DNA of 64,000 bases from a virus (taxonomy: Duplodnaviria > Caudoviricetes). Position numbers and translations under genes: made by a program. Below the pieces are notes generated by a model, which saw only the letters and a program-made list of their open reading frames with translations, was not told the origin of the DNA and did no database searches. Positions 16,975 to 63,804 of this stretch are shown piece by piece (positions within the stretch are counted from its first letter, which is position 1; every line of letters starts with the position of its first letter). Location: the IMG/VR virus record IMGVR_UViG_3300044695_006401; one strand, written 5' to 3'.

Positions 16975-19647
16975 TTATTTTTTGTAATATGTATCTATAA
17001 AGTCTTTTATTGTGTTGTAAGTTCTTTCCGTATTCAAGTCTAAATTATTAAATTCAGGAGTAACCCACATAATTTCTTGTCCTTTAGGGAAACTATTATA
17101 AACACTTTCTGGTAATGAGTAGATATCTCTTTTTTGTAGAACTACTAAGTATTGTACATTATCACCATTTAAGACTATAGACCCTAAATCCACCCCTCGT
17201 GGGATTGATACTGATGTTATATCAATATTTGACACACCAAATATTGTGTTCATTTTTGTCAACAATTCACCCGCATTACCAGCGGCAACCATTTCTTTTT
17301 GTTTTTGTTTTACCATATTTAAGTAATCCTTGGGTAACTTTGGAACATATTTCATATTGTTTTTTACAAATTCTCCTTGTTCTTTATCGATAATTCCCTC
17401 TTTTACTAAGTCGTCTACTCGATTTTTAAAAATCGGTAGAGCAATTTGTTGAGTCTTAATTATTTGATCATAACCAACTTCTTCAACTCTCTCCTCCAAA
17501 CGATTGTTAGTCTTTTCAATTATCTTATCATTTTTCTTAATTATTTCTTGATTAGATTTCTCTCCTACTGCCGCTTTAGTTGCATCCACAATATTGTCAT
17601 ACTCACCAGGGTTGTCTTTATAATAACTAAGCCTGTTATAAAGTTGAATTATCGTGTTGTCCGCAAATCCTGGAACTGCGATTTGTAGTACGTCGGTCCA
17701 TTCATTACCTCCAGGTATTTTACCCATATATTGCTCAAACCCAAATTCTACAATTGACTTACCTGATATAAAATCGATATATTCGGGTAACCAGTAAGCC
17801 TCAAATAAATTTTTATCCTTGGTGTCCATCCCAACTACATTTCTCGCCTTTTGGAATGCGTCAAAAATAGCAGAGAGTAATCCGGCAACAAACGGAACTA
17901 AAATATATCTTAAACCAATAGTTTTTAATGTGTTGTAATAAATCGTCCTTCCTCTATATCCCTTTGTTGCCAATAATCTCTCAACCTCTCTAGGTGTCTT
18001 CCAAGATCCTGTCGTAAACCATGACAGTACTTTACTGTTCATAATAAACTCACCCATTTTGTCCTTAATAACTGTGGTAACTTCATTATTTTTTACGGTT
18101 TTGGACATGTCTTCGAATTTTTTACTAGTTTCTTCTGACATTTTTTTAAAGTCCATACCACCCTCATCGACAGATGCTTTATTAAAAAGGTCTCTAATAG
18201 ATGCTGATCTAAAACCCGGAGGTTGTTCATCAACCACTTTACAAAAACTTTGGAATGACTCTATATCTTGTTGGGTTGTAAGTTTCTTAACCGCGTTTTC
18301 TTTGAAAGCCTTCCACAAATCTTCTACAAAAAGTTCTCGACTATATTTTGCCGGATCCAAAATAATTTCAGATCGTAGTTTTAGTAATCTATCTTTTATT
18401 TTAAAAAGATAATATGGATCTAACTTTGTTGGGTTTTCACTAACATTTCTATATGCTGCCAATCCCTCTCCGAACGCCTTTTCAAATTCTTTAGCATATG
18501 TTTCAAATTTAGGTTTCAAGGTACTATTGATTACTGCATCAACTAATACTTCAAAATTTGCAACCCACCATCTAAATAATGGTCTAAAATATTTAACATA
18601 CCATGAATCAAAATTTACATTTTTCGCACTCAAAATTTTAAATGTGTTTCCTAATTCTTCCAATCTTTCTGATCTAATTACAAATTCAAGGGAGTCATCA
18701 AGATTTACATCAATCCCCTTTTTGAAATCATCAACATCTTTTATAAATTGTTTTTGTTGGTCGTTTAATTCATCCTGATTTTTTTGTAATAATTCTTCGT
18801 ATTTGCTTAAAAACTTTGCATCAACTCCTTGTCCACCAATGCTTTTAATAACCTCATCAGCGTTTAAACCTAAAGGGGCGTCCCCATATTTTACAGTTTT
18901 TGTTCTTTTTGGATAGTTGAATACTTGTTTGTTTTCAACCATATCATCTAGTAACTGTTTTGTTTTTGAAAAATTTCTTAAGAATTCTGATGTTTGTTGA
19001 AAAAGCAAGTTTGGATCCACTATCGACGGGTCAATTTTTCCCGTTTTTACATTGTGTTTAATTATGTAATTAATGTTATCGTCGATCAAATCAAATACTT
19101 CGTCAACATTATTTAACTTTTGTCCTGATGTGGATATTCCATATATCGCCTCGTAAAAAGTTTCATCTAATAGCGTATATAAACGATTCATTGGATGGTT
19201 TCTGTTACGAAGTAATGCTTTTACGGCATCTTCTGATATTTTCTTTATTTGATCGGGATTAAGTTTAATTTTGGAAAGTCCCGCCAATGATGTATTCGGA
19301 ACGGCATCGTCAGGGAATTTATTTGCCAAATCAGATAAAAAATCATCTGTAGTAGAAAGTATTTTTCTCACTTCGATGTCATTTCTTAAAACTTTCATCA
19401 GATTTTCAATTTCATCATCAGTAAGACCACCAGCTTCAATTAGTTTGAGTTGTATTTCATCTAATTCCGAATCAGTTATTTTAACGCCCTTTTGTCTTAC
19501 AGACTTTAATATTGTCATAAAACTATCAAACGATCTAGGTGCTTTGATTGCTAAAGTTTTTAACCAAGTTCCTTGTTCAACAATTAGTTTTTGAACACCC
19601 ATGAGTTCCTGTATTCTCGATATTTCAGATATGAGTTCTTTTTTCAT
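16975..19647 (-). CDS. Large helical hypothetical protein with xE leader (MKKELISEISRIQELMGVQKLIVEQ)
   Basis: 890-aa ORF with leader motif; TATTTAT 5 nt upstream of the ATG. Confidence 0.75.
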   Translation of the reverse strand: MKKELISEISRIQELMGVQKLIVEQGTWLKTLAIKAPRSFDSFMTILKSVRQKGVKITDSELDEIQLKLIEAGGLTDDEIENLMKVLRNDIEVRKILSTTDDFLSDLANKFPDDAVPNTSLAGLSKIKLNPDQIKKISEDAVKALLRNRNHPMNRLYTLLDETFYEAIYGISTSGQKLNNVDEVFDLIDDNINYIIKHNVKTGKIDPSIVDPNLLFQQTSEFLRNFSKTKQLLDDMVENKQVFNYPKRTKTVKYGDAPLGLNADEVIKSIGGQGVDAKFLSKYEELLQKNQDELNDQQKQFIKDVDDFKKGIDVNLDDSLEFVIRSERLEELGNTFKILSAKNVNFDSWYVKYFRPLFRWWVANFEVLVDAVINSTLKPKFETYAKEFEKAFGEGLAAYRNVSENPTKLDPYYLFKIKDRLLKLRSEIILDPAKYSRELFVEDLWKAFKENAVKKLTTQQDIESFQSFCKVVDEQPPGFRSASIRDLFNKASVDEGGMDFKKMSEETSKKFEDMSKTVKNNEVTTVIKDKMGEFIMNSKVLSWFTTGSWKTPREVERLLATKGYRGRTIYYNTLKTIGLRYILVPFVAGLLSAIFDAFQKARNVVGMDTKDKNLFEAYWLPEYIDFISGKSIVEFGFEQYMGKIPGGNEWTDVLQIAVPGFADNTIIQLYNRLSYYKDNPGEYDNIVDATKAAVGEKSNQEIIKKNDKIIEKTNNRLEERVEEVGYDQIIKTQQIALPIFKNRVDDLVKEGIIDKEQGEFVKNNMKYVPKLPKDYLNMVKQKQKEMVAAGNAGELLTKMNTIFGVSNIDITSVSIPRGVDLGSIVLNGDNVQYLVVLQKRDIYSLPESVYNSFPKGQEIMWVTPEFNNLDLNTERTYNTIKDFIDTYYKK

Positions 19648-19688
19648 TTTATATAAATATACCCTAATTATTTAAATAATATAGTTTA

Positions 19689-21815
19689 TCAGTTCTTTAT
19701 CAAGGTGTCTGATTTTTTACTTACCATATTTAACATATTTTCATCAAACTCGAGGTCATTTAAATCATCGGTAATTTCTTTTATTTTTTTTCCTTTTTGT
19801 TTGTTTAATTCCTCCTGTACTTCTTCTTTAGTGACTTGACTTTCATTCTTCTTTTCCCACTCAAGTTGATTTTTTTCGATTTGAGAACTCGCTTGTTCTA
19901 TAGCTAATTTTATTGATTTTGAATCTAAAGAAATATTACCGTAATTATTTATTTTGTCAAATTTTTTGGAGTCTTCCAATAATGATTCTAATGTATCATT
20001 TCCACAAACACCGTCAGGATTCAATCCTCTATTTTTTTGATATTTTTTAATTACATTTTCAGTGTATTTATCATAATATCCCCATTTGAATGATGAATTA
20101 ACGGCACCCAAATTATATGCGGGAGACGACTTTTTCAAAGAAAATATTTTGAAGTTTCGTTTTGTATCGTCCGATAATGTAATATTAACTATATATACCC
20201 CTTCTTGTAATTTAGACATGTCAACAAGTATGTTAGTTTTTTCATCATTATTTTTTGATGCCATTTCTCTACCGTAAACACTATACACTTTGACACTACT
20301 TATTTCTTCAGCATTCTGAAAGTTCAAAATCATATTTTTACTATCGTAGCTATAGCTAGCAACTTTTTGATCACTTTTAATACCTAGTTTTTTTAGAACA
20401 TACTGAATAAAAACAACTTCATACATAAAAGTATTCTTAAAATTTTTCTCACTAAATGTAAGATTAGATTTTATTATTTGTTCCAATGACATGACAACAA
20501 TATCCTTTAAAGTACTAAGTTGTTTCTCTATGTCATCAATTAGTTTTTCTTTCTCTTCTGTATCGCATCTTTCAGCAAATCTTTGTGTTGCTCCGCCAAT
20601 TTTACCTAAGAGAGATAATATTTTATTTTCTGAACCTTCAAGGTCTTGTAGACTAAACGACCTACAAACTCCAAGACCACTTGCGATTGCGTCCCATGTC
20701 ATAAAACCACCTCCCATTACAAGACCTGCTTGTGTTAAAAAATTTGCAGGTAACAAAGATTTTTTTACTAAGTATAGTAAAAATTCTAAAAACTTTTCTA
20801 CATTTTTAGTTAGAGTCATTAGTGTTTTGGTTACTACATTTTTCATGGCAGTTTTAAGTGCCAATTTTACATAATAGTCTTGATTCTCAATAAATTCATT
20901 TAAAGCTTGTCTTTCTTGTGAACTTAACGATTCGGAACCGATCTTTCCTGCTTTCCATAAACCTAACTTTTCTAAAAACTTTTTGAACTTAGGTATGCCC
21001 ATATTCTTTAGGTATTTTGCCAAAAGAGTAAAACCAGGCACTAAAGCAAATACCATACCTAATCCTGCCATATATATATCACCATCTACCGTGGCATAAA
21101 TAGCAGCATCTAATAATTCGAGTGAAAACTCTACTAATCCATAACCTAAACTAGTTCCAATACCACCCGTCGCTATTGCAACTAATACCGCAGATACGGG
21201 TAACACAACATGTAAAAGTTCTCTTGTATATGGAGGTATCATTTGTTTGGCTATTGTTGTGGATGGGTCAAAAACTGATTCATAAGAATATTTTTCATAT
21301 GGATTAAATTTTTGAAGAATATTTTGATATTGTATTAACCATTTGTCATTTTTCTGATATTGTATTTCAGAAGCCATATTAACATCCCTATTAAGTTCTT
21401 GAAAAAATGGGTCTTGGGCAACACTAAACTCTTGTTGTTGTAAAAACTGAATTATTGTTAACCCTACCGATTCGGGAAAATTTTTGTGTATTAATTTTAA
21501 AAGTATGTCATACTGATTTTTGTTTTTTAAGGTTTTTAATGATTCTAGTAATCCGTCCTCATCTGTACCCCATTTCCAAAACTCAACCCAGTATGAATCT
21601 TTGTTTATTTCTTTTTTAATTTTTTCAAAAACTCTATATGCAACTGTCGTGTCTTTAGATGGTCTGTTAGTATCAATTAATGGTTGGAACTGCCCTTCTG
21701 AACCTAATCTATCACTTTTAACGGTTTGTTCCATTAAAGTCTTAGATCTATCAAAATTGATTAATGATAATTGTCTAAGTAGTTCAATATTTAGTGATAA
21801 ATCTTTGTCCATCAT
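19689..21815 (-). CDS. Leader-bearing protein with hydrophobic segments and a C-terminal peptidoglycan-binding domain interrupted by a T9SS-CTD-like insert
   Basis: Start re-called to 21815 (ATGA overlap with the upstream TGA). YYDKYTENVIKKYQKNRGLNPDGVCGNDTLESL is PG_binding_1-like. Confidence 0.65.
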   Translation of the reverse strand: MMDKDLSLNIELLRQLSLINFDRSKTLMEQTVKSDRLGSEGQFQPLIDTNRPSKDTTVAYRVFEKIKKEINKDSYWVEFWKWGTDEDGLLESLKTLKNKNQYDILLKLIHKNFPESVGLTIIQFLQQQEFSVAQDPFFQELNRDVNMASEIQYQKNDKWLIQYQNILQKFNPYEKYSYESVFDPSTTIAKQMIPPYTRELLHVVLPVSAVLVAIATGGIGTSLGYGLVEFSLELLDAAIYATVDGDIYMAGLGMVFALVPGFTLLAKYLKNMGIPKFKKFLEKLGLWKAGKIGSESLSSQERQALNEFIENQDYYVKLALKTAMKNVVTKTLMTLTKNVEKFLEFLLYLVKKSLLPANFLTQAGLVMGGGFMTWDAIASGLGVCRSFSLQDLEGSENKILSLLGKIGGATQRFAERCDTEEKEKLIDDIEKQLSTLKDIVVMSLEQIIKSNLTFSEKNFKNTFMYEVVFIQYVLKKLGIKSDQKVASYSYDSKNMILNFQNAEEISSVKVYSVYGREMASKNNDEKTNILVDMSKLQEGVYIVNITLSDDTKRNFKIFSLKKSSPAYNLGAVNSSFKWGYYDKYTENVIKKYQKNRGLNPDGVCGNDTLESLLEDSKKFDKINNYGNISLDSKSIKLAIEQASSQIEKNQLEWEKKNESQVTKEEVQEELNKQKGKKIKEITDDLNDLEFDENMLNMVSKKSDTLIKN

Positions 21816-22261
21816 GATGCGTATTTTCCTGTTGGTCCGTAACCTCTTCCTGAAGTCCATTTATAACCCGTACCTTGGTAAGTCGGACCTTTAGTTCTCC
21901 CACTATCCCAAACAGTGTTCCCGACAGGGTTTCCCTTAGATCTATTGACTCCACTTTCCCACTTACTTACAGTACCTCCCCCTGAAGATGCGGTATCAGT
22001 AGTGGTATCTGTGGTAGTATCTGTTGTAGTTGCAGTTTCTTCACCCTCTTCTTTGATTTCACCTTCACCCATCCCATCAGAATCATAACTATCCATTTCT
22101 TTGTCCATTTCTGGATTTACACCATATTGTGATGGTCCTGTTTGTCTTGGGTCTTGGTCGTCCGCATAGTCACCATACGGATCTTTTGTAAACTCCGTTG
22201 ATCCTTCTAAGATATTCATCAAATTTTTGATGCGTGATATGCTCTCTTGTAAATTTTTCAT
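21812..22261 (-). CDS. Leader-bearing acidic/low-complexity protein with repeated W-x-SG motifs
   Basis: MKNLQESISRIKNLMNILE leader; KWESG/VWDSG/KWTSG repeats. Confidence 0.7.
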   Translation of the reverse strand: MKNLQESISRIKNLMNILEGSTEFTKDPYGDYADDQDPRQTGPSQYGVNPEMDKEMDSYDSDGMGEGEIKEEGEETATTTDTTTDTTTDTASSGGGTVSKWESGVNRSKGNPVGNTVWDSGRTKGPTYQGTGYKWTSGRGYGPTGKYAS

Positions 22262-22298
22262 TTACTAATAAATACTTTAACAATAAGAAAAATAAGAT

Positions 22299-23636
22299 TT
22301 ATCCTTTGTATTGTAAATGGAAGTGAGGACCTGTGGAAGCATCCGAGGGGTCATTATATTCGTCAATATAACCGAATCCAGAATATTGACCTTTATAATT
22401 ATTCAATAGATTTATAAATTGGCGATGATAACCCCCATCCAAAGTAACATCTAAAGCCTTACCCATAGAGTGTAGACTAGTATAATTTAATCCATGATGG
22501 AATTTATCATTTCCAGATGTCACAACTAAATTTGCGTTAGGAACCATTTTTTTAAATTCCTGAAATAGTGATGTTACAATACCTAAAAACTTAGGATCAA
22601 CATTTCCTCCACTATCTATATCTGCACCACCACCCTTTAGTTGTACGCCAATATTAGACATTTCTTGTTTGAAATCCGAAACGGACCTGTTAATCATCTC
22701 GAATTCATCTTCAGGTTCAACATCTTTTAATATTTTACTTAAAAACTTACTCAAGTCATCCTCATCAAATCCATGAACTCTTAATTCATAAATTAATTCC
22801 TCTAAAGTGTCATTATCAGATATACCTGTTGGTTGAATTGTATTATCCATTTGGAACTTTTTTACCGCCTTTTCTGTTTCTTCATCGTAAAACCCATTTT
22901 CGGTCAAGTCCCCATACCCTAAGAATGATAATGCTATTTTAATAATCCTAACATCATCAATATCACTAAACCTGTCATCAATACTGTAACTATTTTTTGA
23001 TTTAACAATTAAATCGAAGTTATCTAAAAACTCATATATCGTGTCGTAATCTGTTTCGTCATTAATATTAAGGTTTTGGTTTTTCTGTAAAATTTCTTTT
23101 TGATCTTCATTTTCAAATTCAAATCCACCATCGTTAATAAAATTATCAACAACCCCTCTTAGGTTTCTTATAACTTTACTACCCTTTGAAAGTACCTCAT
23201 CCCCAAAAGAAAAGTAGTTACCGACAACATTTACTTTGTCTTTTTCTAACATCTGATGAAATATGATTTCATCATCACCAATTTTGTCCCATTGTTCGTC
23301 ATCAAAGTCATATTCATCGATATCAATATATCCTTTCATCAAATAAAGTTCAGCATTAGGAAATACTCTTGAAAGTTCATTAACTAATGCCGATATGCTC
23401 GTATTTGGGTCAAATAAATCGTTTGACCCAACAGAAAAAAACAAAGTATCAACAAATGGATATGGTTCTTGTCTAGTAAGTTGCATCAATAATAGATTGA
23501 CATCGATGTTTGGATCTATAAGGTCTATTGGTCTAAATAAATCTGAATTATCCAACAAGTAGGCAATTTCATCACCGATTACTGCAACATTTGGTTCGTT
23601 AACAAAATCCTCTTGTAAATTAAAAATCTTTTTCAT
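22299..23636 (-). CDS. Putative peptidoglycan hydrolase: degenerate SGNH-like + PG-binding + M15-like zinc peptidase
   Basis: VIGDE...VGSND (SGNH-like, Ser missing); GFYDEETEKAVKKFQMDNTIQPTG (PGBD); SLHSMGKALD (H-x6-D) and PHFH (HxH) of LAS-fold peptidases. Confidence 0.7.
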   Translation of the reverse strand: MKKIFNLQEDFVNEPNVAVIGDEIAYLLDNSDLFRPIDLIDPNIDVNLLLMQLTRQEPYPFVDTLFFSVGSNDLFDPNTSISALVNELSRVFPNAELYLMKGYIDIDEYDFDDEQWDKIGDDEIIFHQMLEKDKVNVVGNYFSFGDEVLSKGSKVIRNLRGVVDNFINDGGFEFENEDQKEILQKNQNLNINDETDYDTIYEFLDNFDLIVKSKNSYSIDDRFSDIDDVRIIKIALSFLGYGDLTENGFYDEETEKAVKKFQMDNTIQPTGISDNDTLEELIYELRVHGFDEDDLSKFLSKILKDVEPEDEFEMINRSVSDFKQEMSNIGVQLKGGGADIDSGGNVDPKFLGIVTSLFQEFKKMVPNANLVVTSGNDKFHHGLNYTSLHSMGKALDVTLDGGYHRQFINLLNNYKGQYSGFGYIDEYNDPSDASTGPHFHLQYKG

Positions 23637-36593: not shown

Positions 36594-36595
36594 AG

Positions 36596-50389: not shown

Positions 50390-50416
50390 AATATATTATA
50401 TAAACTGTTATATTCT

Positions 50417-50465
50417 TATATGTTCCTGATCTTATTCACTCCCTTTAATAACGATAGTTTATATA
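50417..50465. repeat. 49-bp dispersed direct repeat, copy 2
   Basis: Matches 48302-48350; runs directly into inverted-repeat copy 3. Confidence 0.85.
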
Positions 50466-50544
50466 TAGGATAAATTTGTGAGGTGAATTCCGTAGTGAGT
50501 TTACGAACGGTAGGATGGAGTGAATGATTTGATCGTATACTCTT
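50462..50544. repeat. Inverted-repeat element, copy 3 (left end degenerate)
   Basis: ...TGAGGTGAATTCCGTAGTGA...GAATGATTTGATCGTATACTCTT, abutting the stop of 50544-51032. Confidence 0.75.
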
Positions 50545-55053: not shown

Positions 55054-57768
55054 CTAATCCCAATAACCACCTTCTATTACTTCCATCATCCAAGAAAGAA
55101 TTGATAGTAACTCGTCATTAGTTAGGGTAATAATTGATGTTAGATATTGGTCTTTTTGTTCTCTATGTCCATATTCATCAAGATGATACTCCCATATCTC
55201 AACAGCACTTTGACCACTGTCTTGTACTAATATATCGTTAACATACTTAGTATCACTCAATGGTAAATTTAACGCAAAAAGTGAACCATAATTGTCACCA
55301 CTCATCCCATCATGTTCTAAAACAAATTCTCTTATATATTGTTTTAATATTTCTTTGGGGTTATCTACTTTACTTAATAATGTTTTTACTTGATTAAAGT
55401 CTAACCCTGTCATCTTTATGAAATCATATAAACCGTGTTGGTCTATAAGTTTTTGTAATGATTGTTCTTTATTATCAGATTCATTTATATTTTTGTCCCA
55501 CCATCTTTTCTCACCACATTTTGGTGTTGAGTATGAACCAACATAGAAATTATCTATTGGGATGTAACCTTTGATTGTTTCTTTAATATCAAGTCTTATT
55601 TTTTTAACATAATGGTTTCTTCCTACCTCAGCAAAAAACTTCTCTTTAAGGTCAAATAAACCAATCTCAACATCAATTAAATACATATCGTCTTCTTCAT
55701 TATACAAAACTCTAATATCACAAACACAATCTTCATTTTTAAATGGTTCCACAATATCTTTGATGATGTCTAAATACTTTGGTTGTTTTTCTTCTGACTC
55801 GTTTATCTCATTTCCGTCATCGTCATATTCAATTTTTTCAACATCAATAAAAAAGTCAGCGTTCTTTCTTTTATAGTGCCATACTGGTGCCCACCATGAA
55901 CATAAAATAATATTTCCACCTGTCATTTCATCAATCTTATCTTCTATAACTTCTTCAAACCAACTGTCGTAGTTTGCTGCAGTATCATCTACATCGTGAT
56001 AGATTTTAATTAAAGGTTTTCCGTATATTTCATCAATTTCAATATATTCAACCTCATCAAATAACTGAAGAATCATTTGTTTAACCAAATCAAGTTTTTT
56101 ATCTTCTGATTCCATTAAATCATTCTTTAATGAATCTTCCCTTAATATACTTCTTATGGATTCTTGTAATCTATTAGGTGAATCTTCAGGCCACGAATTT
56201 AAAACATCTTCACTACTTCCTGTTCCTTCATATTTTAGGGTTATCGCCTCTTTTGGAATATCTTGAAATGTTACAATATGTTTTGACCTTGACTCAAAAT
56301 GTCTATCTTTAAACCATTTAACATAAGGAATCATTGTTGTGTCAATAAACCAAATATCATCGTCGTATGTTGAATCAAACCATGCTCTTTTGTTTGTTGA
56401 GTTGGTTGCAAAAATTGCTGGTTTACATTTAACCCCATAACCTACATATACTTTATAACATTCTCCCGCTCTTACTTTAAGACCGTTTTCCATTATCTTA
56501 TCTCTGTACATTGGATTGGACTTATGGACAACAATATGATTGGGTGTTATTTCTTTACCCGCAGGACTATAATCTTTGTCTTCTGATTCACTTTCTCTCA
56601 GATAGATATTTTCTTTATCTTCACACTTTGGTGTTTGTAACATATCAACATAAATTACTACTCCTGTATAGGTTGCAATTTCTTTTGTAATGGCATCTAA
56701 GACCTCATTATACATGTTTCTTACAGCTTGGGTCACTGGCCAATATTCTGTTCCGTAACCTCCAATAAATAAAACTGTAACTTGAGGTATATTGAAAAAA
56801 TCTTCATTTAATGTGATTTCATAAGAACAAATAAGATGACCATATTCAGGAAGTATCATATCTTCCATTATCATTTTTATTATTTTGAAAAGTCTTTGTG
56901 TGTCCTTTTCATTTCTGTTTGAACTCTCGTTCATGAACTTAACCTCATCGTCACAACTATCCACATACCACGGTGTGTAGATATACACTTTGATTCCCAT
57001 AGACTTTATTGAGTCCTCTAAAGAATTAAGTTCTTTTTCTATTTCAGTAATTGAGGTCGCCAAATCATCTGTTGAGAGAGTTTTTGATCGTATTTCATAT
57101 TCTTTATCATCAGGATTATATTCTGCCCATATATCACAAAGCCCGTCCCAACTAACTAAAGATAACAATACATTTATTGCCCTTAGATTTTTGTCAGTTT
57201 CACGATTATCACTTTCGTTTAAACTTTCAGACTCACCATAAAGTTTGTTGTGTATTCTTTTCACATCTTCTTTTGAAAAAGGGAATTCTTCATCATGTAT
57301 ATCGACATCTTTGCCGTTTATTTGTCTAACATCAAAATAACCAGAACTTTTAATTTCAGGTAAGTTGGTTTCTATCTTTCCTACAGTATTGTCATTTTGA
57401 ATTGTGGCAAGGATGGTTATTAGTTTCTTTTTTTCTGCTGAAGTTAATTTACTGTCATCATAAATAAGATTTAATTCAGGCCAAGAATGTGTGCCCCATA
57501 TATTTTTTTTAATACCAATTATTTCATATTCAATCGGGAATACAACAAATCTAGGATCTCCCCAAGCGTCGTGATATTCGAAATCAACAACACCTGTTAA
57601 TTGATTTAACATTTCAGAAAGTTCAAGGTCATCTTTGAAAATACTTTTAAGATTATCCAGTCCCCCAACCATTTCAGCAGCATCAAAGATATTATTATCT
57701 TCAATAAATTGTTTCATCTCTTGTTGGAGTCTATTTTCTTTTAAGATATGTCTAATCAGTTCTTTCAT
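55054..57768 (-). CDS. Modular 904-aa putative polyprotein (about 7 modules joined by xE linkers)
   Basis: Leader MKELIRHILKE; internal LNE-S, MNE-S, LRE-S, LQESIRSILRE, INE-S and INE-S junctions; first and last modules match stand-alone neighbours. Confidence 0.8.
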   Translation of the reverse strand: MKELIRHILKENRLQQEMKQFIEDNNIFDAAEMVGGLDNLKSIFKDDLELSEMLNQLTGVVDFEYHDAWGDPRFVVFPIEYEIIGIKKNIWGTHSWPELNLIYDDSKLTSAEKKKLITILATIQNDNTVGKIETNLPEIKSSGYFDVRQINGKDVDIHDEEFPFSKEDVKRIHNKLYGESESLNESDNRETDKNLRAINVLLSLVSWDGLCDIWAEYNPDDKEYEIRSKTLSTDDLATSITEIEKELNSLEDSIKSMGIKVYIYTPWYVDSCDDEVKFMNESSNRNEKDTQRLFKIIKMIMEDMILPEYGHLICSYEITLNEDFFNIPQVTVLFIGGYGTEYWPVTQAVRNMYNEVLDAITKEIATYTGVVIYVDMLQTPKCEDKENIYLRESESEDKDYSPAGKEITPNHIVVHKSNPMYRDKIMENGLKVRAGECYKVYVGYGVKCKPAIFATNSTNKRAWFDSTYDDDIWFIDTTMIPYVKWFKDRHFESRSKHIVTFQDIPKEAITLKYEGTGSSEDVLNSWPEDSPNRLQESIRSILREDSLKNDLMESEDKKLDLVKQMILQLFDEVEYIEIDEIYGKPLIKIYHDVDDTAANYDSWFEEVIEDKIDEMTGGNIILCSWWAPVWHYKRKNADFFIDVEKIEYDDDGNEINESEEKQPKYLDIIKDIVEPFKNEDCVCDIRVLYNEEDDMYLIDVEIGLFDLKEKFFAEVGRNHYVKKIRLDIKETIKGYIPIDNFYVGSYSTPKCGEKRWWDKNINESDNKEQSLQKLIDQHGLYDFIKMTGLDFNQVKTLLSKVDNPKEILKQYIREFVLEHDGMSGDNYGSLFALNLPLSDTKYVNDILVQDSGQSAVEIWEYHLDEYGHREQKDQYLTSIITLTNDELLSILSWMMEVIEGGYWD

Positions 57769-58394
57769 TCTCCTTTTAATCTTCTGTATTCAGCACCATT
57801 AAGTTGTTCTAAATAAGTTTGTTCAATCCATCCTGGTAATCTTTCTTCCCACCACAATATATCGTTCATTTTATATTTTCCTGTTTTAAGAATATGTTCT
57901 ATCATTTCTTCCTCAGTTACATCATCAGGTTTTGTTATCGGCGGAAAACAAATATCACCGTCGTAATTAGTTATATAAAGTTCGGAAATGTAGATATCAT
58001 TTCTACCCATCTTTTTTTGAATTTCACCTAAATAAGTATCATCAAACCATTCTTCAAGTAGGTATCTTAAATAACTTACTCTCACAGGAATATCTGTGGA
58101 TAAGTCATCAAATACATTTTTTGGAACACTCATTAAACCCCTATTAAAACTCATTTCTTCAGTTTTTTTATTGTCGTCATCATTACCAAAATATAAAACA
58201 ACATCCAATATTTCTCTTCCGTTTTTACAAAAATCAAAACTATGTGTTGATTCATAAGATTTTTTATGGTACATCTCAACACCATCAAAATAATCATTCA
58301 ACCATCTGTAGATAAGTTGCTCTACCTTTGGTGTAGGTTTATCATATTTTCTACTAACCTCTTCTTTTAATATGTGTCTAATTAATTCTTTCAT
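57765..58394 (-). CDS. Leader-bearing protein
   Basis: MKELIRHILKEE. Confidence 0.75.
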   Translation of the reverse strand: MKELIRHILKEEVSRKYDKPTPKVEQLIYRWLNDYFDGVEMYHKKSYESTHSFDFCKNGREILDVVLYFGNDDDNKKTEEMSFNRGLMSVPKNVFDDLSTDIPVRVSYLRYLLEEWFDDTYLGEIQKKMGRNDIYISELYITNYDGDICFPPITKPDDVTEEEMIEHILKTGKYKMNDILWWEERLPGWIEQTYLEQLNGAEYRRLKGE

Positions 58395-58717
58395 TACATT
58401 ACTTCGTATAAAAACTTTTTAATAGTTCTAACAACTTTTTGTCTATATGGGTCATTCTCGTTTGTGAAGATACTCATTGGTTCAGTAACATTGTTTTCAA
58501 TAAGCATATTCAAAATACGTCTTACTTGTCTTTTTTTATTATCCCACATAGATACACCATAATATTCATCACCTACCTTAAAATATATCTCTTTAAACTT
58601 ACTTCCTCCTTCAATGTTAATCTCATTAATTTCATATCTTCTTCTTAGGAAGTTATAAACTTTTTGGTCAATCTCTTCAGATTCTTCTTTCAATATGTTT
58701 CTAATTAAATCTTTCAT
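58394..58717 (-). CDS. Leader-bearing protein
   Basis: MKDLIRNILKEE. Confidence 0.75.
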   Translation of the reverse strand: MKDLIRNILKEESEEIDQKVYNFLRRRYEINEINIEGGSKFKEIYFKVGDEYYGVSMWDNKKRQVRRILNMLIENNVTEPMSIFTNENDPYRQKVVRTIKKFLYEVM

Positions 58718-59085
58718 CTGAACTTAAAATATTCAATATCTAATTGTTTAATATCACCCCAAGTATCTTTAATAACCATTTCTTTTGGTATCATATCATA
58801 GATGTCGTTTAATTGGTTTTTAAATACATTTTCACCTTTACCTACTATCTCAAACTTCATTGGAAACTCAAGGTATTCCTTTAACGAGTGGTAAATAAGA
58901 TTCAACTTTCCTTTGAGTGAGTCAATTAATGTTACATACTCAGGTTCGTTTTTGAGTATTTGTTTTAGGTTATCTAAACCACCAACAAACTTAGCGGCAA
59001 CAAAAATATCCTCATCTTTAATTAGATCGAGGATGTCAGTCTGCACTTTAGACTCTCTTAAGATATGTCTAATTAGTTGTCTCAT
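58714..59085 (-). CDS. Leader-bearing protein; homologue of the first polyprotein module
   Basis: Start re-called to 59085 (MRQLIRHILRES); IFVAAKFVGGLDNLKQIL vs IFDAAEMVGGLDNLKSIF. Confidence 0.75.
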   Translation of the reverse strand: MRQLIRHILRESKVQTDILDLIKDEDIFVAAKFVGGLDNLKQILKNEPEYVTLIDSLKGKLNLIYHSLKEYLEFPMKFEIVGKGENVFKNQLNDIYDMIPKEMVIKDTWGDIKQLDIEYFKFR

Positions 59086-59524
59086 CAACAAAAGTAAAAT
59101 TATCAATCATTGGTTCTTTATAATCATCTGAAAAACCACCATATCCTATCATCTTCATATCTTCAGGGATATATTTATACATTTCTCGTAACTCTTCATT
59201 CATTTTTAAAGCCTCATCTACCCCTTCATTATCATATCTTCCCTTGAATGGGGATAATGGTGTCACAAGGGCCTTATCTAAATAAAAAATTTTTTCATAT
59301 CGGGGTTCTAAACCATAAAATTCTTTTACCATTTCATAGTCAACATAGAGGTTGATGTAAATTATCATCTTGTATGTTTCTAATTCATCTGACAATTCCC
59401 ATCCTAATATAAATGGGTATTGTTGTTTTAGTGTATTAACTACAATACCGATCCCTTTTAGAATTTTTGGTTCTTCAACTTCTTCAGTAAGAATTTGCTT
59501 TATTAAATTTCTATTAATCTTCAT
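59069..59524 (-). CDS. Leader-bearing protein
   Basis: NLIKQILTEE; LKQQYPFILGWEL. Confidence 0.75.
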   Translation of the reverse strand: MKINRNLIKQILTEEVEEPKILKGIGIVVNTLKQQYPFILGWELSDELETYKMIIYINLYVDYEMVKEFYGLEPRYEKIFYLDKALVTPLSPFKGRYDNEGVDEALKMNEELREMYKYIPEDMKMIGYGGFSDDYKEPMIDNFTFVDETTN

Positions 59525-59942
59525 CGTATTCTTCTTGTCTAAATGCGTATGTCATTTTTAATATAAATTGGTTGTCGGAACTCCACTCACAACCAATAAA
59601 ATACCACATCAAGTTATTATATTTACCCGTATTTCTACCAAAAGAACCATTATCTTTAAATGAATATTTAAGTAAAACTTTATCTAATTCACCATCAATT
59701 CTACGCAATTGCTGAGTGAACTCAAAAAGGTCAGGATCTTCATTCCAAGATGTTATAATAATGTCTCCCGCAATTTCAGTATATCTTTCATCAAAAGTAA
59801 TATTTTGAACTTCAACCCCGTTGATAATGTTTGTATCCACAATACTTTCTACGATATAGGGAACAGATTCAGCTGACTTGATAAATCTTTCTCTCAAACC
59901 TTCTGTTTCCTCATTTAATATATTTTTGATTAAATTTTTCAT
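59514..59942 (-). CDS. Leader-bearing protein, paralogue of 60827-61261
   Basis: MKNLIKNILNEE; LRERF...FDERY...KYSFKDNG. Confidence 0.75.
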   Translation of the reverse strand: MKNLIKNILNEETEGLRERFIKSAESVPYIVESIVDTNIINGVEVQNITFDERYTEIAGDIIITSWNEDPDLFEFTQQLRRIDGELDKVLLKYSFKDNGSFGRNTGKYNNLMWYFIGCEWSSDNQFILKMTYAFRQEEYDED

Positions 59943-60550
59943 TTTACTTTTTTACCGTATTTGAAGAACTTTTGCTGTATATTGATCGTTCCTTTACATC
60001 CACCCGATAGTTTTACTCCATTAGAATCGAAACATTTTGGCATAGTTTTATTGAAGTAATATACCAATTTTGGTTCTCCTGAGTTAACTGAATGCATACC
60101 AGCTAATTGACCATCAACCGCAGATTCACCTCCACCAGCACTTCCTCTACTATCAAACTGTTCGTAGGTATAACCATCATTACTTTTTCCGATTGTGACT
60201 TCCCAATTTACTGTTAATGTATTGGGATCAATATTTACGGTAACTTTTTTAATATCTACCGCGTTTAAACCTTTTGTGTTTTTATATTCTTTGATGCCAT
60301 TCTGAACTTTTGTGTTGATTCTACCACCAAATCCATCCGATCTTCTGCTTTGAAATGAGTGTAATGCGTCGTATGCTCTTGGTTGACCTTCAGCTGAGTA
60401 ACTTCCACTAATTACCTCATCAAGGTTATTTACAGCATTATTAATTTTTTTTGATGCATTATTTAGTCCCTTAAGAGCATAATTTTTTAACTCGTTTTGC
60501 TCAACTAAAGTTACATATTCTTTCAGTACTTGTCTTATTAAATTTTTCAT
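59939..60550 (-). CDS. Leader-bearing protein
   Basis: MKNLIRQVLKE; YDALHSF...FDSRGSAGGG. Confidence 0.75.
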   Translation of the reverse strand: MKNLIRQVLKEYVTLVEQNELKNYALKGLNNASKKINNAVNNLDEVISGSYSAEGQPRAYDALHSFQSRRSDGFGGRINTKVQNGIKEYKNTKGLNAVDIKKVTVNIDPNTLTVNWEVTIGKSNDGYTYEQFDSRGSAGGGESAVDGQLAGMHSVNSGEPKLVYYFNKTMPKCFDSNGVKLSGGCKGTINIQQKFFKYGKKVK

Positions 60551-60647
60551 ATCTTTATAAATATATTATTAGATTATTATAGTCCACATTTAGACTTAAC
60601 CACATTAAAGTTTTGTAATATCTATGTAAATGTTAAAGTCCAATTGA

Positions 60648-60827
60648 TTAATTGGTGATTATCATTTGCACCTCCTGTTGCCGCACCAAATCCCACCCAA
60701 TGATAAAAGGATAATCTTGTTTAAGTATTTTCATAGCAATATCAAGACCTTTTTTGGATGTTTGGCTATATTCCTTTCTTTCAGGACCTTCATATTCTTT
60801 TAATATGTTTCTAATCAACTCTTTCAT
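60648..60827 (-). pseudogene. Truncated leader-bearing paralogue of 59069-59524 (59 aa)
   Basis: MKELIRNILKEYEGPERKEYSQTSKKGLDIAMKILKQDYPFIIGWDLVRQQEVQMIITN*. Similarity appears to resume in another frame (FNIYIDITKL*). Confidence 0.6.
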
Positions 60828-61261
60828 TATGCGTCGTATTCATCTTGATTTACCCAAAACTCTAATGTTAAAACAAATGATTCCTCACCACCTGCCTGCC
60901 ATTTCATACCAATTGGCAAACAACCTAACATCCAATCATTATCAGACCCTCTTCTGATTAAACCACCGTTTTCTGTAAAAGTATATTGTTGATTAATTTT
61001 ATAAACTTCATTTTCTATACTATCTGCATGTCGACCGATTGAACCAAAATCGTGGTCCTCAAAGTATGATTTAACCGTAAGTTTTGCTCGAATTTGAATA
61101 TACTTTGGGTCAAATTCAATTTCACTTATCTCTACAGAATCTATCTCAGAAGAAATATTACTTTCAAAAATATATTCGAGTTTTTGCATAGAGTTTCTAA
61201 ACCTTTGTTCTAACTCACCATCTTGTTCTTCTTTCAATATGTTTTTGATAATGTCTTTCAT
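60827..61261 (-). CDS. Leader-bearing protein, paralogue of 59514-59942
   Basis: MKDIIKNILKEE; LEQRF...FDPKY...QYTFTENG. Confidence 0.75.
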   Translation of the reverse strand: MKDIIKNILKEEQDGELEQRFRNSMQKLEYIFESNISSEIDSVEISEIEFDPKYIQIRAKLTVKSYFEDHDFGSIGRHADSIENEVYKINQQYTFTENGGLIRRGSDNDWMLGCLPIGMKWQAGGEESFVLTLEFWVNQDEYDA

Positions 61262-61282: not shown

Positions 61283-63022
61283 TTATAAACCATACTTAGA
61301 TTTATCCGCATTAAAGTTTTGTAGTACCTGTGAACCCGTTAATGCTGAGCTATACATTCTTACAACACCCATTCTACCATTCAACCATTGAGAAAATTGT
61401 CCTCCATTGAATGATCCAGCGTATAAAGGTGATGTTGTGTTTTTAATACTTGTAAATGAATGAGAGTTACTTCCAACTAAACTACCATTTATATAAAGGG
61501 CTAATGAATTACTTGCAACGTTAGTCCATACACCCACAACTTGATACCAAGTATTAATAGTTAAACCTGTTGCTGGTGATGTAATTGATGTTGAACCATT
61601 ACCTATTTCCATATACGTATTACCGTTGGAAATTGTTCTTATTCCATATCCCCAATCGGCAGAGTTACCGCCATCAGTTTTTGCAATAAGGACTCTACTT
61701 GACCCTGCAATTACCGAATGGTTTACCCAAAACTCAATCGTCCAATCACCACTACCTGGCTCGAGTAATGCATTGTCAGCAACACTAATCTGAGATGACG
61801 AACCGTTGTATGTGAAATAAGGGTTTGTAAATGTTATATTTGACATTGTACCATTTAACCCGTTACCCGATAAGTCATTTATTGTTGTACCCGCACCAGA
61901 ATAACTTAACGAATTGCTTGGGTCAAAATGTAATACAAGATTACTTGTTACAGGAACTATTGGTGTCGCAGTTGGTGTCGCAGTTGGTGTCGCAGTTGGT
62001 GTAGATGTCGGTGTAGATGTCGGTGTTGGAGTTGGTTCAACAAATCTTGGAGCCAAATAATTGTATTGTTGTGTGATTTCTGAAAGACTTAATTGTCTGT
62101 TATAGAAATACATGTTGGCAACATGTCCAAAAGGTTGACCTGCCAGATCATTATTCCCCCAACCCCAATGTGTTATTCCTCCAGCACCGAAAGCGATTGT
62201 ACTTCCCACTTGTGAACCATTTATGTAGAATCTTTGAGATGCGTTAGTTCCAACTACCGCATACTGAACCCAAACGCCAGCTGAAGATGCAACATCATAT
62301 CCTGAACTTTTGAAGGAAGTATCCCAATATCCTAAGGTATTAGTTCCATTAGGGATGGTAATTGGTGTGTATTTTGGTGAGTTTGTGTAAAGTAATGTTC
62401 TAAATCCGGCAGTACTTGTTATTAATCTTGCCCAAGTAATATAAGTGTATCCTGATGTTGGTAATGTTGGTCCAGTACCATTTACAACAACTCTGTTAGT
62501 TCCCGTAGTACAATCAAAACATTTTATACCGTTAAGAACTGTGTAAGTAGCGTTGGTTAATGTGTGATCATACCCACTCGTTATATCATAAACTGTAGAT
62601 CCTGTCCCTGGATAACTTAAACTTGTATATGCATCTAATTGTATGATTAAACCTAAGGTATTAATACCTGAGTATGATGTCCAATAACCATTATCGTTTA
62701 ACCACTCTTTGGCAATTGCGGGATCTGTGAATGTTTGTGAATATGATTTATTAACTAACGCTAAAAAACTATTGTCGTTTTTTAAAACACTCCTTTTGAA
62801 TCCTAAATACGCATTAACAAACTCAGGGTTAGGTTGATTTCCTTGTGTGTTCGGGTAAGCAACAACATAACCTAAATCTTCATCAGGGCCGTTCCACCAT
62901 CTTACACCACCTACACCTCCAACATAATCTATATTATCAACACCTATAGCTAAATTACCAATTTGTATTGTGCCCGATATTGTTGATCCTGTGTTATACG
63001 CAAAAGGTCTCGATGTTGCCAT
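61283..63022 (-). CDS. Tail/adhesin protein with two LamG (concanavalin A-like) domains and Pro/Thr linker
   Basis: WVQYAV..., RFYING, HVANMYFYNRQLS; WYQVVGVW, LYING, RMGVVRMYSSALT; PTPTPTSTPT linker. Confidence 0.8.
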   Translation of the reverse strand: MATSRPFAYNTGSTISGTIQIGNLAIGVDNIDYVGGVGGVRWWNGPDEDLGYVVAYPNTQGNQPNPEFVNAYLGFKRSVLKNDNSFLALVNKSYSQTFTDPAIAKEWLNDNGYWTSYSGINTLGLIIQLDAYTSLSYPGTGSTVYDITSGYDHTLTNATYTVLNGIKCFDCTTGTNRVVVNGTGPTLPTSGYTYITWARLITSTAGFRTLLYTNSPKYTPITIPNGTNTLGYWDTSFKSSGYDVASSAGVWVQYAVVGTNASQRFYINGSQVGSTIAFGAGGITHWGWGNNDLAGQPFGHVANMYFYNRQLSLSEITQQYNYLAPRFVEPTPTPTSTPTSTPTATPTATPTATPIVPVTSNLVLHFDPSNSLSYSGAGTTINDLSGNGLNGTMSNITFTNPYFTYNGSSSQISVADNALLEPGSGDWTIEFWVNHSVIAGSSRVLIAKTDGGNSADWGYGIRTISNGNTYMEIGNGSTSITSPATGLTINTWYQVVGVWTNVASNSLALYINGSLVGSNSHSFTSIKNTTSPLYAGSFNGGQFSQWLNGRMGVVRMYSSALTGSQVLQNFNADKSKYGL

Positions 63023-63804
63023 TATTTTTTAGGTTCTTCAAGTTTCATATCCTTGATGAACTTATCGTGAGACGCCTTGTATGATTTTTGAGTTTCATCA
63101 TTTTGATTTTTAGTATATTGCCAGTTCCAATAAAGTTTTGGATTTGGTTTAAATCCATAATATTCGTGACTTTCTTTTTGAGTTTCAGTCACATTTTCAC
63201 CATTCCAATTTTGACCTACACAAATAAAGCCAGTCTCAATGTCTTTAATCAAGTTTGATTCACCAAGTGTTGTGTGTCTATTTTGAATCCATGTAAGTCT
63301 TTCCATTAGATTTTGGTAGTACATATTTGCTGCTCCCCATCTCACTGAAGAGAAAAATAACACAGCGTCTGATTCAAAAAGTTCTTTTGAAACTTTCCAT
63401 AGTTGGTCTGATGGTTCATTTATATTAACCCAACATCTGTGATGACCTGATGGGTTCTTTTTCTTATCTTTAAGAGTAGCCTTTAATAGTCCGCATGAAT
63501 TACCATCAGCTCTTGATACATTACCTTCACACGGTAATATTTTAAGTTCTGTTACATCTATGTAAGTTGCTTTGTCACCAAGTTCTTCTTTGATATATAA
63601 AGCCAACAATCTTGATTTTGGTGTGTCAAATTTTTTAGGATCGAATTGGTATCTATTTGAACAAGACAATAAAAGAACTTTGTCTTTTTTTTTCAGAATA
63701 TCTATAGTTTGTTTCAGTTTTTTATATCCGTCACTCTGAACCCTTTCTTCTGACAACATAAGTTGTTTTAGTCTTTGTAATTCTTCTTCTAAAATTGATT
63801 TCAT
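63022..63804 (-). CDS. Flavodoxin-like / NAD(P)H-dependent FMN reductase-like protein with leader
   Basis: Start re-called to 63804 (MKSILEEELQRLKQLMLSEE); LLLSCSNR, ILPCEG...C...CW, SDAVLFFSSVRWG, MERL. Confidence 0.7.
   Translation of the reverse strand: MKSILEEELQRLKQLMLSEERVQSDGYKKLKQTIDILKKKDKVLLLSCSNRYQFDPKKFDTPKSRLLALYIKEELGDKATYIDVTELKILPCEGNVSRADGNSCGLLKATLKDKKKNPSGHHRCWVNINEPSDQLWKVSKELFESDAVLFFSSVRWGAANMYYQNLMERLTWIQNRHTTLGESNLIKDIETGFICVGQNWNGENVTETQKESHEYYGFKPNPKLYWNWQYTKNQNDETQKSYKASHDKFIKDMKLEEPKK

What the first reader, a model, noticed from the sequence alone, without database searches (positions are those of the whole stretch)
16975..63804. About 35 unrelated genes share N-terminal [ILV]-x-E leaders: candidate capsid-addressing and protease-processing system
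SEEN: five leader subtypes recur on sequence-unrelated bodies. (1) MK-x-hh-TES: 33017 MKIVITESQY, 44623 MKIILTESQY, 42113 MKVLILESQY, 40132/50000 MKKI[VI]RLTESEL, 35305 MERRITESEI, 45987 MKNKLTERDL, 47078 MRRRLNESDI. (2) M[NK]LQE..R[IM]: 22261, 50351, 51032, 54018, 54449, 54745. (3) MK[EDN][LI]I[RK].[IV]L[KN]E: 57768, 58394, 58717, 59085, 59942, 60550, 60827, 61261. (4) E[IL].....Y[DE]..[KR].[IL].EQ: 25861, 36925, 21815. (5) S.EE[KR]..I...H: 43797, 46509, 24432, 38137. Nearly all end in INE/LKE/ISE/LRE/LME. The leader is absent from the host-like genes (uvrC, FKBP, MTase, REase, barrel, CAP, GH19). KNOWN: T4 internal proteins carry a 10-aa capsid-targeting sequence (MKTYQEFIAE) removed by prohead protease gp21, which cuts after Glu in [IL]-x-E. 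INFERENCE: these leaders address a large, expandable set of cargo proteins into the head, where they are cleaved and possibly ejected into the host. I cannot check whether this has been described.
Basis: partly seen in the sequence, partly recalled or inferred. Interest (0 to 1): 0.92.

Follow-up and report, generated by a model that had tools for sequence, protein, structure and literature searches.

The report
Shared capsid-tag-like leaders on phage proteins
An uncultured giant phage of Bacteroidota puts a few kinds of short N-terminal tag, each ending in the cut site of a T4-type head protease, on dozens of unrelated proteins, most likely to load them into the capsid as phage T4 does with only a handful.

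Summary
Profiles of five leader classes, trained only on other phages, hit 29 of 69 real ORFs in the window. They hit 0 of 68 out-of-frame ORFs and 0 of 690 shuffled proteins. All hits are N-terminal except one internal copy in a 904-aa fusion ORF.

The protein bodies are unrelated: 1-3% of pairs are related, against 72-100% in ordinary N-terminal clusters. Homologous bodies carry different leader classes, or no leader, in other phages. One class has more than 582 stretches in IMG/VR. It is conserved up to an invariant Glu22 and similarity then collapses, with free synonymous codon change.

Relatives (about 290 kb, syntenic) have T4-type capsid, portal and Peptidase_S77 protease genes. Their capsid propeptide is rich in [ILV]-x-E.

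Best reading (0.6): these are T4 CTS-like capsid-targeting propeptides on a far larger scale, 57 of 344 genes in one relative. Packaging, cleavage and ejection are untested. No cultured phage carries these leaders. I could not read the window genome's own protease.

This scan has reported similar leader systems on other DNA (e1-3862018, e1-1066390, e1-3018276). I found no printed description.

The parts
21812..22261 (-). 149-aa ORF, LQE-class leader (LQE6, ILE19)
   Evidence: HMM 21.4 bits, residues 1-25
25861..27441 (+). 526-aa ORF, 'LLEEIKRF' class leader ending INE28
   Evidence: 18.4 bits, residues 6-21
31866..32477 (+). 203-aa ORF, RIK-type leader ending LNE18; body is PAP2-like
   Evidence: 9.8 bits. 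PAP2 hit. The same body carries an LIR-class leader in L069/L070
32466..33017 (-). 183-aa ORF, TES-QY leader (ITE7, LVE15)
   Evidence: 32.7 bits
35012..35305 (-). TES-long leader ORF; its true start is probably the Met at 35305
   Evidence: 28.5 bits at residues 20-43 of the longer ORF. The G3 ortholog starts at the leader
36950..38137 (-). 395-aa ORF, 'S-E-E-K..I...H' class leader
   Evidence: 16.0 bits
39761..40132 (-). 123-aa ORF, TES-long leader (LTE9, VKE22)
   Evidence: 37.8 bits
41271..42113 (-). 280-aa ORF, TES-QY leader, borderline score
   Evidence: 8.3 bits
43339..43797 (-). 152-aa ORF, SEEEK-H class
   Evidence: 24.1 bits
44252..44623 (-). 123-aa ORF, TES-QY leader
   Evidence: 23.7 bits
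45712..45987 (-). 91-aa ORF, TES-long leader ending INE20
   Evidence: 36.3 bits
46066..46509 (-). 147-aa ORF, SEEEK-H class
   Evidence: 27.1 bits
46815..47078 (-). 87-aa ORF, TES-long leader ending LSE20
   Evidence: 28.9 bits
49656..50000 (-). 114-aa ORF, TES-long leader (LTE9, IKE22); this protein was folded
   Evidence: 43.1 bits. AF2: helix 9-21, pLDDT below 50 at residues 18-23, body pLDDT 87-92
50001..51032 (-). Two LQE-class ORFs (50001-50351 and 50544-51032)
   Evidence: 13.8 and 16.4 bits
53599..54745 (-). Three abutting LQE-class ORFs (53599-54018, 54018-54449, 54446-54745)
   Evidence: 21.2, 25.0 and 28.1 bits. The C-terminal body of 54018-54449 carries TES-long leaders in G3 and L069
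55054..57768 (-). 904-aa ORF with an LIR leader; a fusion of modules that are three separate leader-bearing genes in relative G3
   Evidence: 10.6 bits at residues 1-21. BLAST to G3_247079, G3_244713 and G3_243190
56104..56169 (-). Internal, Met-less leader copy (aa 534-555) at a module junction of the 904-aa ORF
   Evidence: 11.9 bits. It aligns with the N-terminus of G3_243190
57765..61261 (-). Array of eight LIR-class ORFs plus one variant (59069-59524). Their leaders are 11 aa and end L-x-E11
   Evidence: 8.5-21.7 bits each. Synonymous codon differences within the leaders, and unrelated upstream DNA
63022..63804 (-). 260-aa ORF, leader ending LSE19. Homologs elsewhere are leaderless or carry an LQE leader
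   Evidence: 10.5 bits. Leaderless L069_19094 and L018_7821. LQE-led homologs
16975..24432 (-).
   Evidence: Below 8 bits. Two have PG_binding_1 domains
30703..31284 (+). Weak candidate with an NlpC/P60 body
   Evidence: 0.8 bits. NlpC_P60 E 4e-21
35316..36925 (-). Two weak candidates (35316-36593 and 36596-36925)
   Evidence: Below threshold. Their N-termini are conserved in the G3 orthologs
40682..41245 (-). Weak candidate
   Evidence: No HMM support. It was in none of the head clusters

Best explanation
The leaders are capsid-targeting propeptides of the T4 CTS type.

Proposed mechanism (inferred):
1. A short amphipathic N-terminal helix binds the scaffolding core of the assembling prohead.
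2. Whatever protein follows the helix is thereby enclosed.
3. The gp21-type (Peptidase_S77) prohead protease cuts after the conserved Glu of [ILV]-x-E and frees the mature cargo inside the head.
4. The cargo can then leave with the DNA at infection.

Shown here: the tags are real, strictly N-terminal, peptide-selected, exchangeable modules that end at an invariant Glu. The phage lineage has a T4-type head with an S77 protease.

Inferred only: binding to the core, cleavage, packaging and ejection.
For: 1. Enrichment is far above controls.

2. The leaders are modular. Leader communities have 1-3% related bodies and 73, 40 and 24 body families. Ordinary N-terminal communities have 72-100% related bodies. 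Homologous bodies carry different leader classes or none. G3_149774 and G4_108576, which sit beside the head genes, are orthologs with different classes.

3. Across 97 distinct DNA versions of the TES-long leader, the major residue is at 0.47-1.00 through position 22, and 0.80 or more at 17 of 22 positions. Glu22 is at 1.00. Identity then falls to 0.38, 0.22 and 0.14. Four to six synonymous codons are used at conserved Leu, Ser and Arg positions, and the upstream DNA is not conserved. In 124 of 125 occurrences the searched 9-residue core starts two residues after a Met, so the leader begins at that Met.

4. All 29 window leaders hold [ILVM]-x-E, and most hold two such sites.

5. The syntenic relative G3 (99% complete) has a Gp23 capsid protein, Portal_T4, Peptidase_S77 and an acidic scaffold. 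The protease matches T4 gp21 structure 5JBL at E 2.6e-16, and the ELNHP and SSRG motifs are kept. S77 was found in 7 related contigs, including 4 of the 5 that are at least 82% complete.

6. The capsid protein's N-terminus is homologous to the T4 gp23 propeptide. It holds 5 [ILV]-x-E sites in 60 residues against 4 in the other 540.

7. A basic 239-aa protein next to the capsid gene starts with an LIR-type leader.

8. A TATTTAT motif lies upstream of 31 of 57 leader genes against 64 of 287 others (p 3e-6). It also precedes the scaffold and protease genes.

9. AF2 gives a leader helix joined to a confident body by a low-confidence hinge at the putative cut site.

10. Leader-bearing bodies include wall hydrolases: lysozyme+LysM, NlpC/P60 and PG-binding proteins. 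The GH19 endolysin-like gene has no leader.

11. T4 precedent: a 10-residue CTS is sufficient for packaging. Residues 8 and 10 govern cleavage. The internal proteins are diverse apart from the CTS (PMC9026906, PMC3012670).
Against: There is no direct evidence of packaging or cleavage. No cultured phage carries these leaders, so no virion proteome exists.

The leaders have no detectable sequence similarity to the T4 CTS (-3.5 bits).

I did not see the protease of the window's own genome. It is only reported in unchecked first-stage notes.

[ILV]-x-E is common in this AT-rich proteome: 45% of control segments have one.

In the pairwise alignment the T4 gp23 cut site falls beside S-F-E-T, not the I-N-E-A site ten residues upstream, so the capsid cut site is ambiguous.

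Several cargo domains (CarboxypepD_reg, Big_1-like, T9SS-CTD-like) are more typical of surface proteins than of internal ones.

Fifty to sixty cargo species per virion would be unprecedented.
Confidence: 0.6

Rival explanations
1. The leader is an uncleaved docking helix. It is a permanent adaptor that attaches many different proteins to one common phage or host hub, for example a capsid-surface, tail or baseplate site, or a host protein. This would resemble the way conserved N-termini anchor exchangeable tail fibres.
For: The same clustering method also recovers tail-fibre-type N-terminal anchors with exchangeable bodies (community 18). Some bodies carry Ig-like, CarboxypepD_reg or PG-binding domains typical of exposed virion proteins. 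An internal leader copy persists in a fusion protein.
Against: Similarity stops exactly at an invariant Glu preceded by a hydrophobic residue at P3, in every class. AF2 predicts a disordered hinge there. Different leader classes replace each other on orthologs, which is harder to fit with distinct docking sites. The lineage has the matching protease.
Confidence: 0.2
2. The leader is a recognition tag for another phage factor, for example the ClpC/ClpA-like AAA+ unfoldase encoded beside the head genes, or a modifying enzyme. It would mark these proteins for unfolding, turnover or modification rather than for packaging.
For: G3 encodes a 681-aa Clp-type ATPase-like ORF near the head module (I read this from its N-terminal sequence and did not scan it against a family library). 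The leaders are Arg-rich. An earlier finding of this scan (e1-127136) showed that a shared phage N-terminal tag can belong to a radical-SAM enzyme instead of capsid sorting.
Against: No radical-SAM gene is present in five related genomes, three of them at least 99% complete, while the control hit 14 of 14 genomes. Nothing links the Clp-like gene to the leaders specifically. The terminal [ILV]-x-E and the propeptide-like capsid N-terminus fit the protease better.
Confidence: 0.1
3. The leader is an unconventional export signal that sends envelope-active enzymes out of the cytoplasm.
For: Many bodies are wall- or envelope-related: lysozyme+LysM, NlpC/P60, PG_binding, PAP2.
Against: The leaders are charged amphipathic helices with no hydrophobic core. 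The same window uses ordinary signal peptides, a lipoprotein-like N-terminus ending in Cys and a CHU_C type IX sorting domain for its exported proteins. Signal peptides formed their own separate cluster (community 30).
Confidence: 0.04
4. The similarity is a nucleic-acid feature (a translation-start element or recombination linker), or a by-product of AT-rich composition.
For: The upstream regions are A-rich and many carry TATTTAT. MK-rich starts are common in AT-rich genomes.
Against: Out-of-frame ORFs and shuffles score zero hits. Conserved residues use up to six synonymous codons, and the upstream DNA is not conserved.
Confidence: 0.02

Closest known systems
Phage T4 capsid targeting sequence (CTS) on internal proteins IPI, IPII, IPIII and Alt, removed by prohead protease gp21
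   Same: It is a short (10-19 aa) N-terminal propeptide on otherwise diverse proteins that ends in [L/I]-x-E. The head has gp20, gp21, gp22-like and gp23 parts. Reviews already suggest the CTS is an evolutionary way to load varied proteins (PMC9026906, PMC3012670). I confirmed the T4-type CTS on a 77-aa ORF of Tequatrovirus slur07.
   Different: There is no sequence similarity to the T4 CTS. There are at least five leader classes, 11 to about 28 aa long, often with two Glu sites. The scale is tens of genes per genome: 29 or more in this window and 57 of 344 genes in G3, against about six in T4. The host phylum is Bacteroidota and the genomes are about 290 kb. Function is untested.
Propeptide-processed inner-body and ejection proteins of giant phages phiKZ, 201phi2-1 and SPN3US
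   Same: These are giant phages with a gp21-related protease that cuts after Glu. Many head proteins are processed, and paralogs gp53 and gp54 of SPN3US share an identical 15-residue N-terminus (PMC5694885).
   Different: There the propeptides are mostly longer than 100 residues, the motif is S/A/G-x-E or A-x-E, few proteins share a leader, and bodies within a family are paralogous. Here the tags are short, highly conserved and interchangeable on unrelated bodies.
Modular sorting signals in general (Sec signal peptides, type IX C-terminal domains, tail-fibre N-terminal anchors)
   Same: A conserved terminal module sits on unrelated bodies. My clustering recovered signal peptides and fibre anchors with the same signature.
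   Different: The leaders are charged helices that end in a protease-type site and are confined to phage genomes with T4-type heads.
Earlier findings of this scan on other DNA (e1-3862018, e1-1066390, e1-3018276, e1-5320617)
   Same: They report shared N-terminal tags ending in hydrophobic-x-Glu on many unrelated proteins of uncultured T4-like or Bacteroidota giant phages.
   Different: The leader sequences differ, and a sequence look-up found no match. Those reports describe one tag each, whereas here several classes coexist and swap. These are AI notes, not publications.

Membership tests
T4-type CTS / gp21-processed propeptide system | Short N-terminal peptide shared by proteins whose mature parts are unrelated | tested here: met
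   29 ORFs in the window; 1-3% of body pairs related.
T4-type CTS / gp21-processed propeptide system | Peptide ends in [L/I/V]-x-Glu, the gp21 cleavage motif | tested here: met
   29 of 29 leaders. Glu22 is invariant in 97 DNA-distinct TES-long leaders and similarity ends there. Two LQE leader endings are seen, L-R-E at 13 and [ILV]-x-E near 18-19, in the example sequences; conservation fades more gradually there.
T4-type CTS / gp21-processed propeptide system | Genome encodes a gp21-type (Peptidase_S77) prohead protease with T4-type portal and capsid protein | tested here: inconclusive
   Met in syntenic relatives G3, G4, G5, G7, G8, G11 and G12. The window's own genome is not held. Only unchecked notes place a protease and a capsid gene 32-64 kb upstream.
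T4-type CTS / gp21-processed propeptide system | Sequence similarity of the tag to the T4 CTS | tested here: not met
   A T4-type internal-protein ORF from slur07 scores -3.5 bits with the leader HMMs. Only the format is shared.
T4-type CTS / gp21-processed propeptide system | Tag is necessary and sufficient for encapsidation and is removed in the prohead | not testable with these tools
   This needs virion proteomics or reconstitution. No cultured carrier was found.
Radical-SAM/SPASM-linked N-terminal tag (as in the scan's RB43 case) | Co-occurrence with a radical-SAM enzyme | tested here: not met
   PF04055 is absent from five related genomes, while the control hit 14 of 14.
Sec/lipoprotein signal peptide | Hydrophobic core after a short basic N-region | tested here: not met
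   The leaders are charged amphipathic helices. True signal peptides in the window cluster separately.

The most novel reading that the evidence does not exclude
These roughly 290-kb Bacteroidota phages run a multi-address protein-loading code. Several interchangeable leader classes route about one gene in six (50-60 proteins, including wall hydrolases and many unknown effectors) into the capsid through the T4-type core and protease. Fused cargo would be cut apart at internal leaders. If so, the virion delivers the largest known phage-injected protein repertoire, and the leader classes may set copy number, position or timing.
Probability: 0.3. Interest if true: 0.85.

Novelty: new variant of a known kind. 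Interest (0 to 1): 0.7.

Why it matters
If the tags work as in T4, a large and fast-changing part of these giant phage genomes encodes proteins that travel inside the virion and act in the host before any phage gene is expressed. These are prime candidates for anti-defence and entry functions.

The leaders would then be a simple sequence key for finding such cargo in metagenomes: hundreds of tagged proteins and more than 130 body families in the loci sampled here. They would also offer new short packaging tags for engineering.

The finding also extends the T4 CTS principle well beyond the T-even phages, where it has so far been shown for only a few proteins.

Tried and rejected
- **Whole genome.** It is not held, so the window's own head module could not be read. 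Contigs break at the collagen-like repeats, which makes walking with the look-up of encoding contigs impractical.
- **Exact 50-mer in IMG/VR.** No match.
- **Cultured phages.** No DNA or protein match for leader proteins or for the leader itself.
- **The search for homologous proteins with a 114-aa leader protein.** It returned only close orthologs. Leader-only matches cannot pass a 5.8-billion-sequence E-value.
- **Profile scan with the mixed LQE alignment.** I replaced it with a degenerate DNA pattern.
- **Literature.** A string search for the leader motifs found nothing relevant. Searches on CTS and jumbo phages found only the T4, phiKZ and SPN3US work. The 'moraphage' paper on aquatic Bacteroidota jumbo phages does not mention N-terminal tags.
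- **Rivals rejected.** A radical-SAM tag, an export signal, and a DNA-level element or compositional chance.
- **Homology of the leaders to the T4 CTS.** Tested and not found.
- **Capsid cut site.** The pairwise alignment with T4-type gp23 is ambiguous between I-N-E-A and S-F-E-T.
Full report
**What the window is.** It is a 31% GC stretch of an uncultured giant phage. Two collagen-like giant ORFs lie at its left end (PF01391, E 1e-282). From about 17 kb onward there is a dense run of small ORFs, nearly all on the minus strand. No whole genome is held, and no cultured phage resembles it. Exported proteins in the window carry Bacteroidota-style signal peptides and a CHU_C type IX sorting domain.

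Many IMG/VR contigs are related. Two were read in full:
- G3: 291,867 bp, 99% complete. It is syntenic with window 19.7-63.8 kb at 40-90% protein identity.
- G4: 182 kb, 61% complete.

- Among 57 ORFs, the first 30 residues give 70 significant pairwise matches. Residues 41-70 give 2, the last 30 give 0, and shuffled heads give 3-10. In G3 the figures are 341 against about 20.
- Bodies are unrelated apart from four pairs.
- To avoid circularity, I clustered N-termini from non-window phages only and built five HMMs from those clusters. They score 8 bits or more on 29 of 69 real ORFs, 0 of 68 out-of-frame ORFs and 0 of 690 shuffles.
- All hits start at residues 1-6, with two exceptions. In ORF 35012-35362 the true start is evidently the Met at 35305. 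The 904-aa ORF has an internal copy at aa 534-555.
- Five more TES-QY leader genes, one of them a lysozyme+LysM, lie just beyond the window's right end.

**The leaders are modules, not conserved ends of paralogs.**

- In unsupervised clusters of N-termini, ordinary clusters have related bodies in 72-100% of pairs.
- The three large leader clusters have 1-3% related pairs and 73, 40 and 24 body families.
- Signal peptides and tail-fibre anchors are the only other clusters with this signature.
- Homologous bodies carry different leaders. The body of 31866 has an LIR leader in L069. The C-terminal body of 54018 has TES-long leaders in G3 and L069. The body of 57765 has a TES-QY leader in L072.
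- The body of 63022 is leaderless in L069 and L018, and LQE-led elsewhere.
- An ortholog pair beside the head genes uses different classes in G3 and G4.
- The 904-aa ORF joins modules that are three separate leader-bearing genes in G3. It keeps a Met-less leader at one junction.

**Selection acts on the peptide.**

In the 80 loci kept it gave 125 occurrences, and in 124 of them the leader starts at a Met.
- Across 97 distinct DNA versions, the major residue stays at 0.47-1.00 through position 22, and at 0.80 or more at 17 of the 22 positions. Glu22 is at 1.00. After that it drops to 0.38, 0.22 and 0.14.
- Conserved Leu, Ser and Arg positions use four to six codons, and the upstream DNA is not conserved.
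- Positions 3-11 were fixed by the search pattern. Positions 12-22 and the sharp boundary were not.
- The LQE leader occurs in at least 120 further stretches: 134 distinct proteins in 64 body families. It ends either at L-R-E13 or at [ILV]-x-E near residue 18-19.
- TES-long alone has 8-16 copies in each of four near-complete genomes. Variant leaders are present in the published 484-kb uncultured phage LR756508.1.
- With all the leader classes modelled at that stage, 57 of 344 G3 ORFs carry a leader.

**Does the lineage have the right protease?**

- G3 has a T4-type head module: a Gp23 capsid protein (E 3e-73), Portal_T4 (E 6e-74), Peptidase_S77 (E 5e-25) and a very acidic scaffold candidate.
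- The protease matches the T4 gp21 structure 5JBL at E 2.6e-16 and keeps the ELNHP and SSRG motifs.
- S77 is present in seven related contigs. These include four of the five that are at least 82% complete. The fifth lacks the capsid gene as well, so its head module probably lies in the missing part.
- The capsid protein's N-terminus aligns with the T4 gp23 propeptide. It holds five [ILV]-x-E sites in 60 residues against four in the remaining 540. The exact cut site is ambiguous.
- First-stage notes on this same genome report a capsid gene with L-I-N-E/A and a protease with I-K-E/S upstream of the window. This matches what I read in G3, but I could not check it.

**Other supporting points.**

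- TATTTAT lies within 40 nt upstream of 31 of 57 leader genes against 64 of 287 others in G3 (p 3e-6). It also precedes the scaffold and protease genes, which suggests co-expression with head assembly. Its role as a promoter is inferred.
- AF2 of ORF 49656-50000 gives a confident alpha/beta body (pLDDT 87-92), a leader helix at residues 9-21, and pLDDT below 50 at residues 18-23, around the putative cut site.
- Cargo bodies with known domains are largely wall-active: lysozyme+LysM, NlpC/P60, PG-binding and PAP2. The GH19 endolysin-like gene, UvrC, FKBP and the methylase have no leader. That split fits a division between virion-borne entry enzymes and cytoplasmic enzymes.

**Rivals.**

- An uncleaved docking helix is the main alternative (0.2). 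It does not explain why similarity stops at an invariant Glu.
- A tag for another factor is possible (0.1). An earlier case in this scan turned out to be linked to a radical-SAM enzyme, but no radical-SAM gene exists in five related genomes.
- An export signal is unlikely, because the phage uses ordinary signal peptides for its exported proteins.
- Nucleic-acid or compositional explanations are excluded.

**Comparison with what is known.**

- The T4 CTS is 10-19 residues and is sufficient to package foreign proteins. Its residues 8 and 10 govern cleavage. It is the only conserved part of otherwise diverse internal proteins (PMC9026906, PMC3012670, PMC5694885).
- The present leaders share that format and the head machinery, but not the sequence.
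- They also differ in coming in several interchangeable classes, and in a scale roughly ten times larger.
- phiKZ-type phages process many head proteins, but through long, family-specific propeptides (PMC5694885).
- I found no printed description of these leaders.
- This scan has reported similar systems in other uncultured phages.

**Verdict.** The CTS-like reading is the best-supported explanation (0.6) but is untested. It is a new, much expanded variant of a known kind.

Noticed in passing
window 55054-57768 (-), internal copy at 56104-56169: This 904-aa ORF is an in-frame fusion of modules that are three separate leader-bearing genes in relative G3. A Met-less leader is retained at one junction, so it is a possible polyprotein cut by the head protease.
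   Followed up: partly
window, upstream of many minus-strand genes (e.g. 22261, 33017, 44623, 51032, 54745, 60550, 61261); G3 genome-wide: A TATTTAT motif starts 11-12 nt or 18-26 nt before the ATG. In G3 it is enriched at leader genes and also lies before the scaffold and protease genes. It is a candidate late promoter that would give very short 5' leaders.
   Followed up: partly
window 1-13043 (-): Two giant collagen-repeat ORFs: one of 2698 aa and one of more than 1600 aa that runs off the window. The region is open in several frames because of the Gly-X-Y repeats. Public assemblies of this phage break here.
   Followed up: no
window 28362-30596 (-): A phage-encoded protein with a Bacteroidota signal peptide, a PKD-like domain and a CHU_C type IX secretion sorting domain. 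This suggests the phage sends a protein through the host's T9SS.
   Followed up: no
window 61283-63022 (-) and 13062-14225 (-): A LamG-domain virion protein has a conserved 'MATSRPFAYNTGS' N-terminus that recurs on many different bodies in 172 IMG/VR loci. This is a fibre-anchor-type module, distinct from the leaders.
   Followed up: partly
window 32466-33017 (-), residues 15-48: Pfam DUF6576 matches over its cut-off (36 bits). The match overlaps the last residue of the TES-QY leader (LVE15) and runs on to residue 48. Its meaning is unknown.
   Followed up: no
window 51069-52550 (-): An N6/N4 DNA methylase lies next to a 249-aa ORF with no family hit.
   Followed up: no
window 33086-34360 (+): A full-length UvrC homolog (GIY-YIG plus UvrC RNase H domain) sits in a phage. 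It is 90% identical to the G3 copy.
   Followed up: no
G3 165090-167135 (L107:5090-7135): A 681-aa ORF that looks like a Clp-type AAA+ ATPase from its N-terminal sequence is encoded beside the head module of the relative. Any role in head assembly or cargo handling is open.
   Followed up: no
LR756508.1 152404-152838 and 243424-243738 (L196, L197): A published 484-kb uncultured phage has the closest GenBank capsid protein (44% identity). It carries variant 'M-K/R-LTE-x-KL...L-x-E' N-termini, so the leader principle reaches beyond the 290-kb clade.
   Followed up: partly
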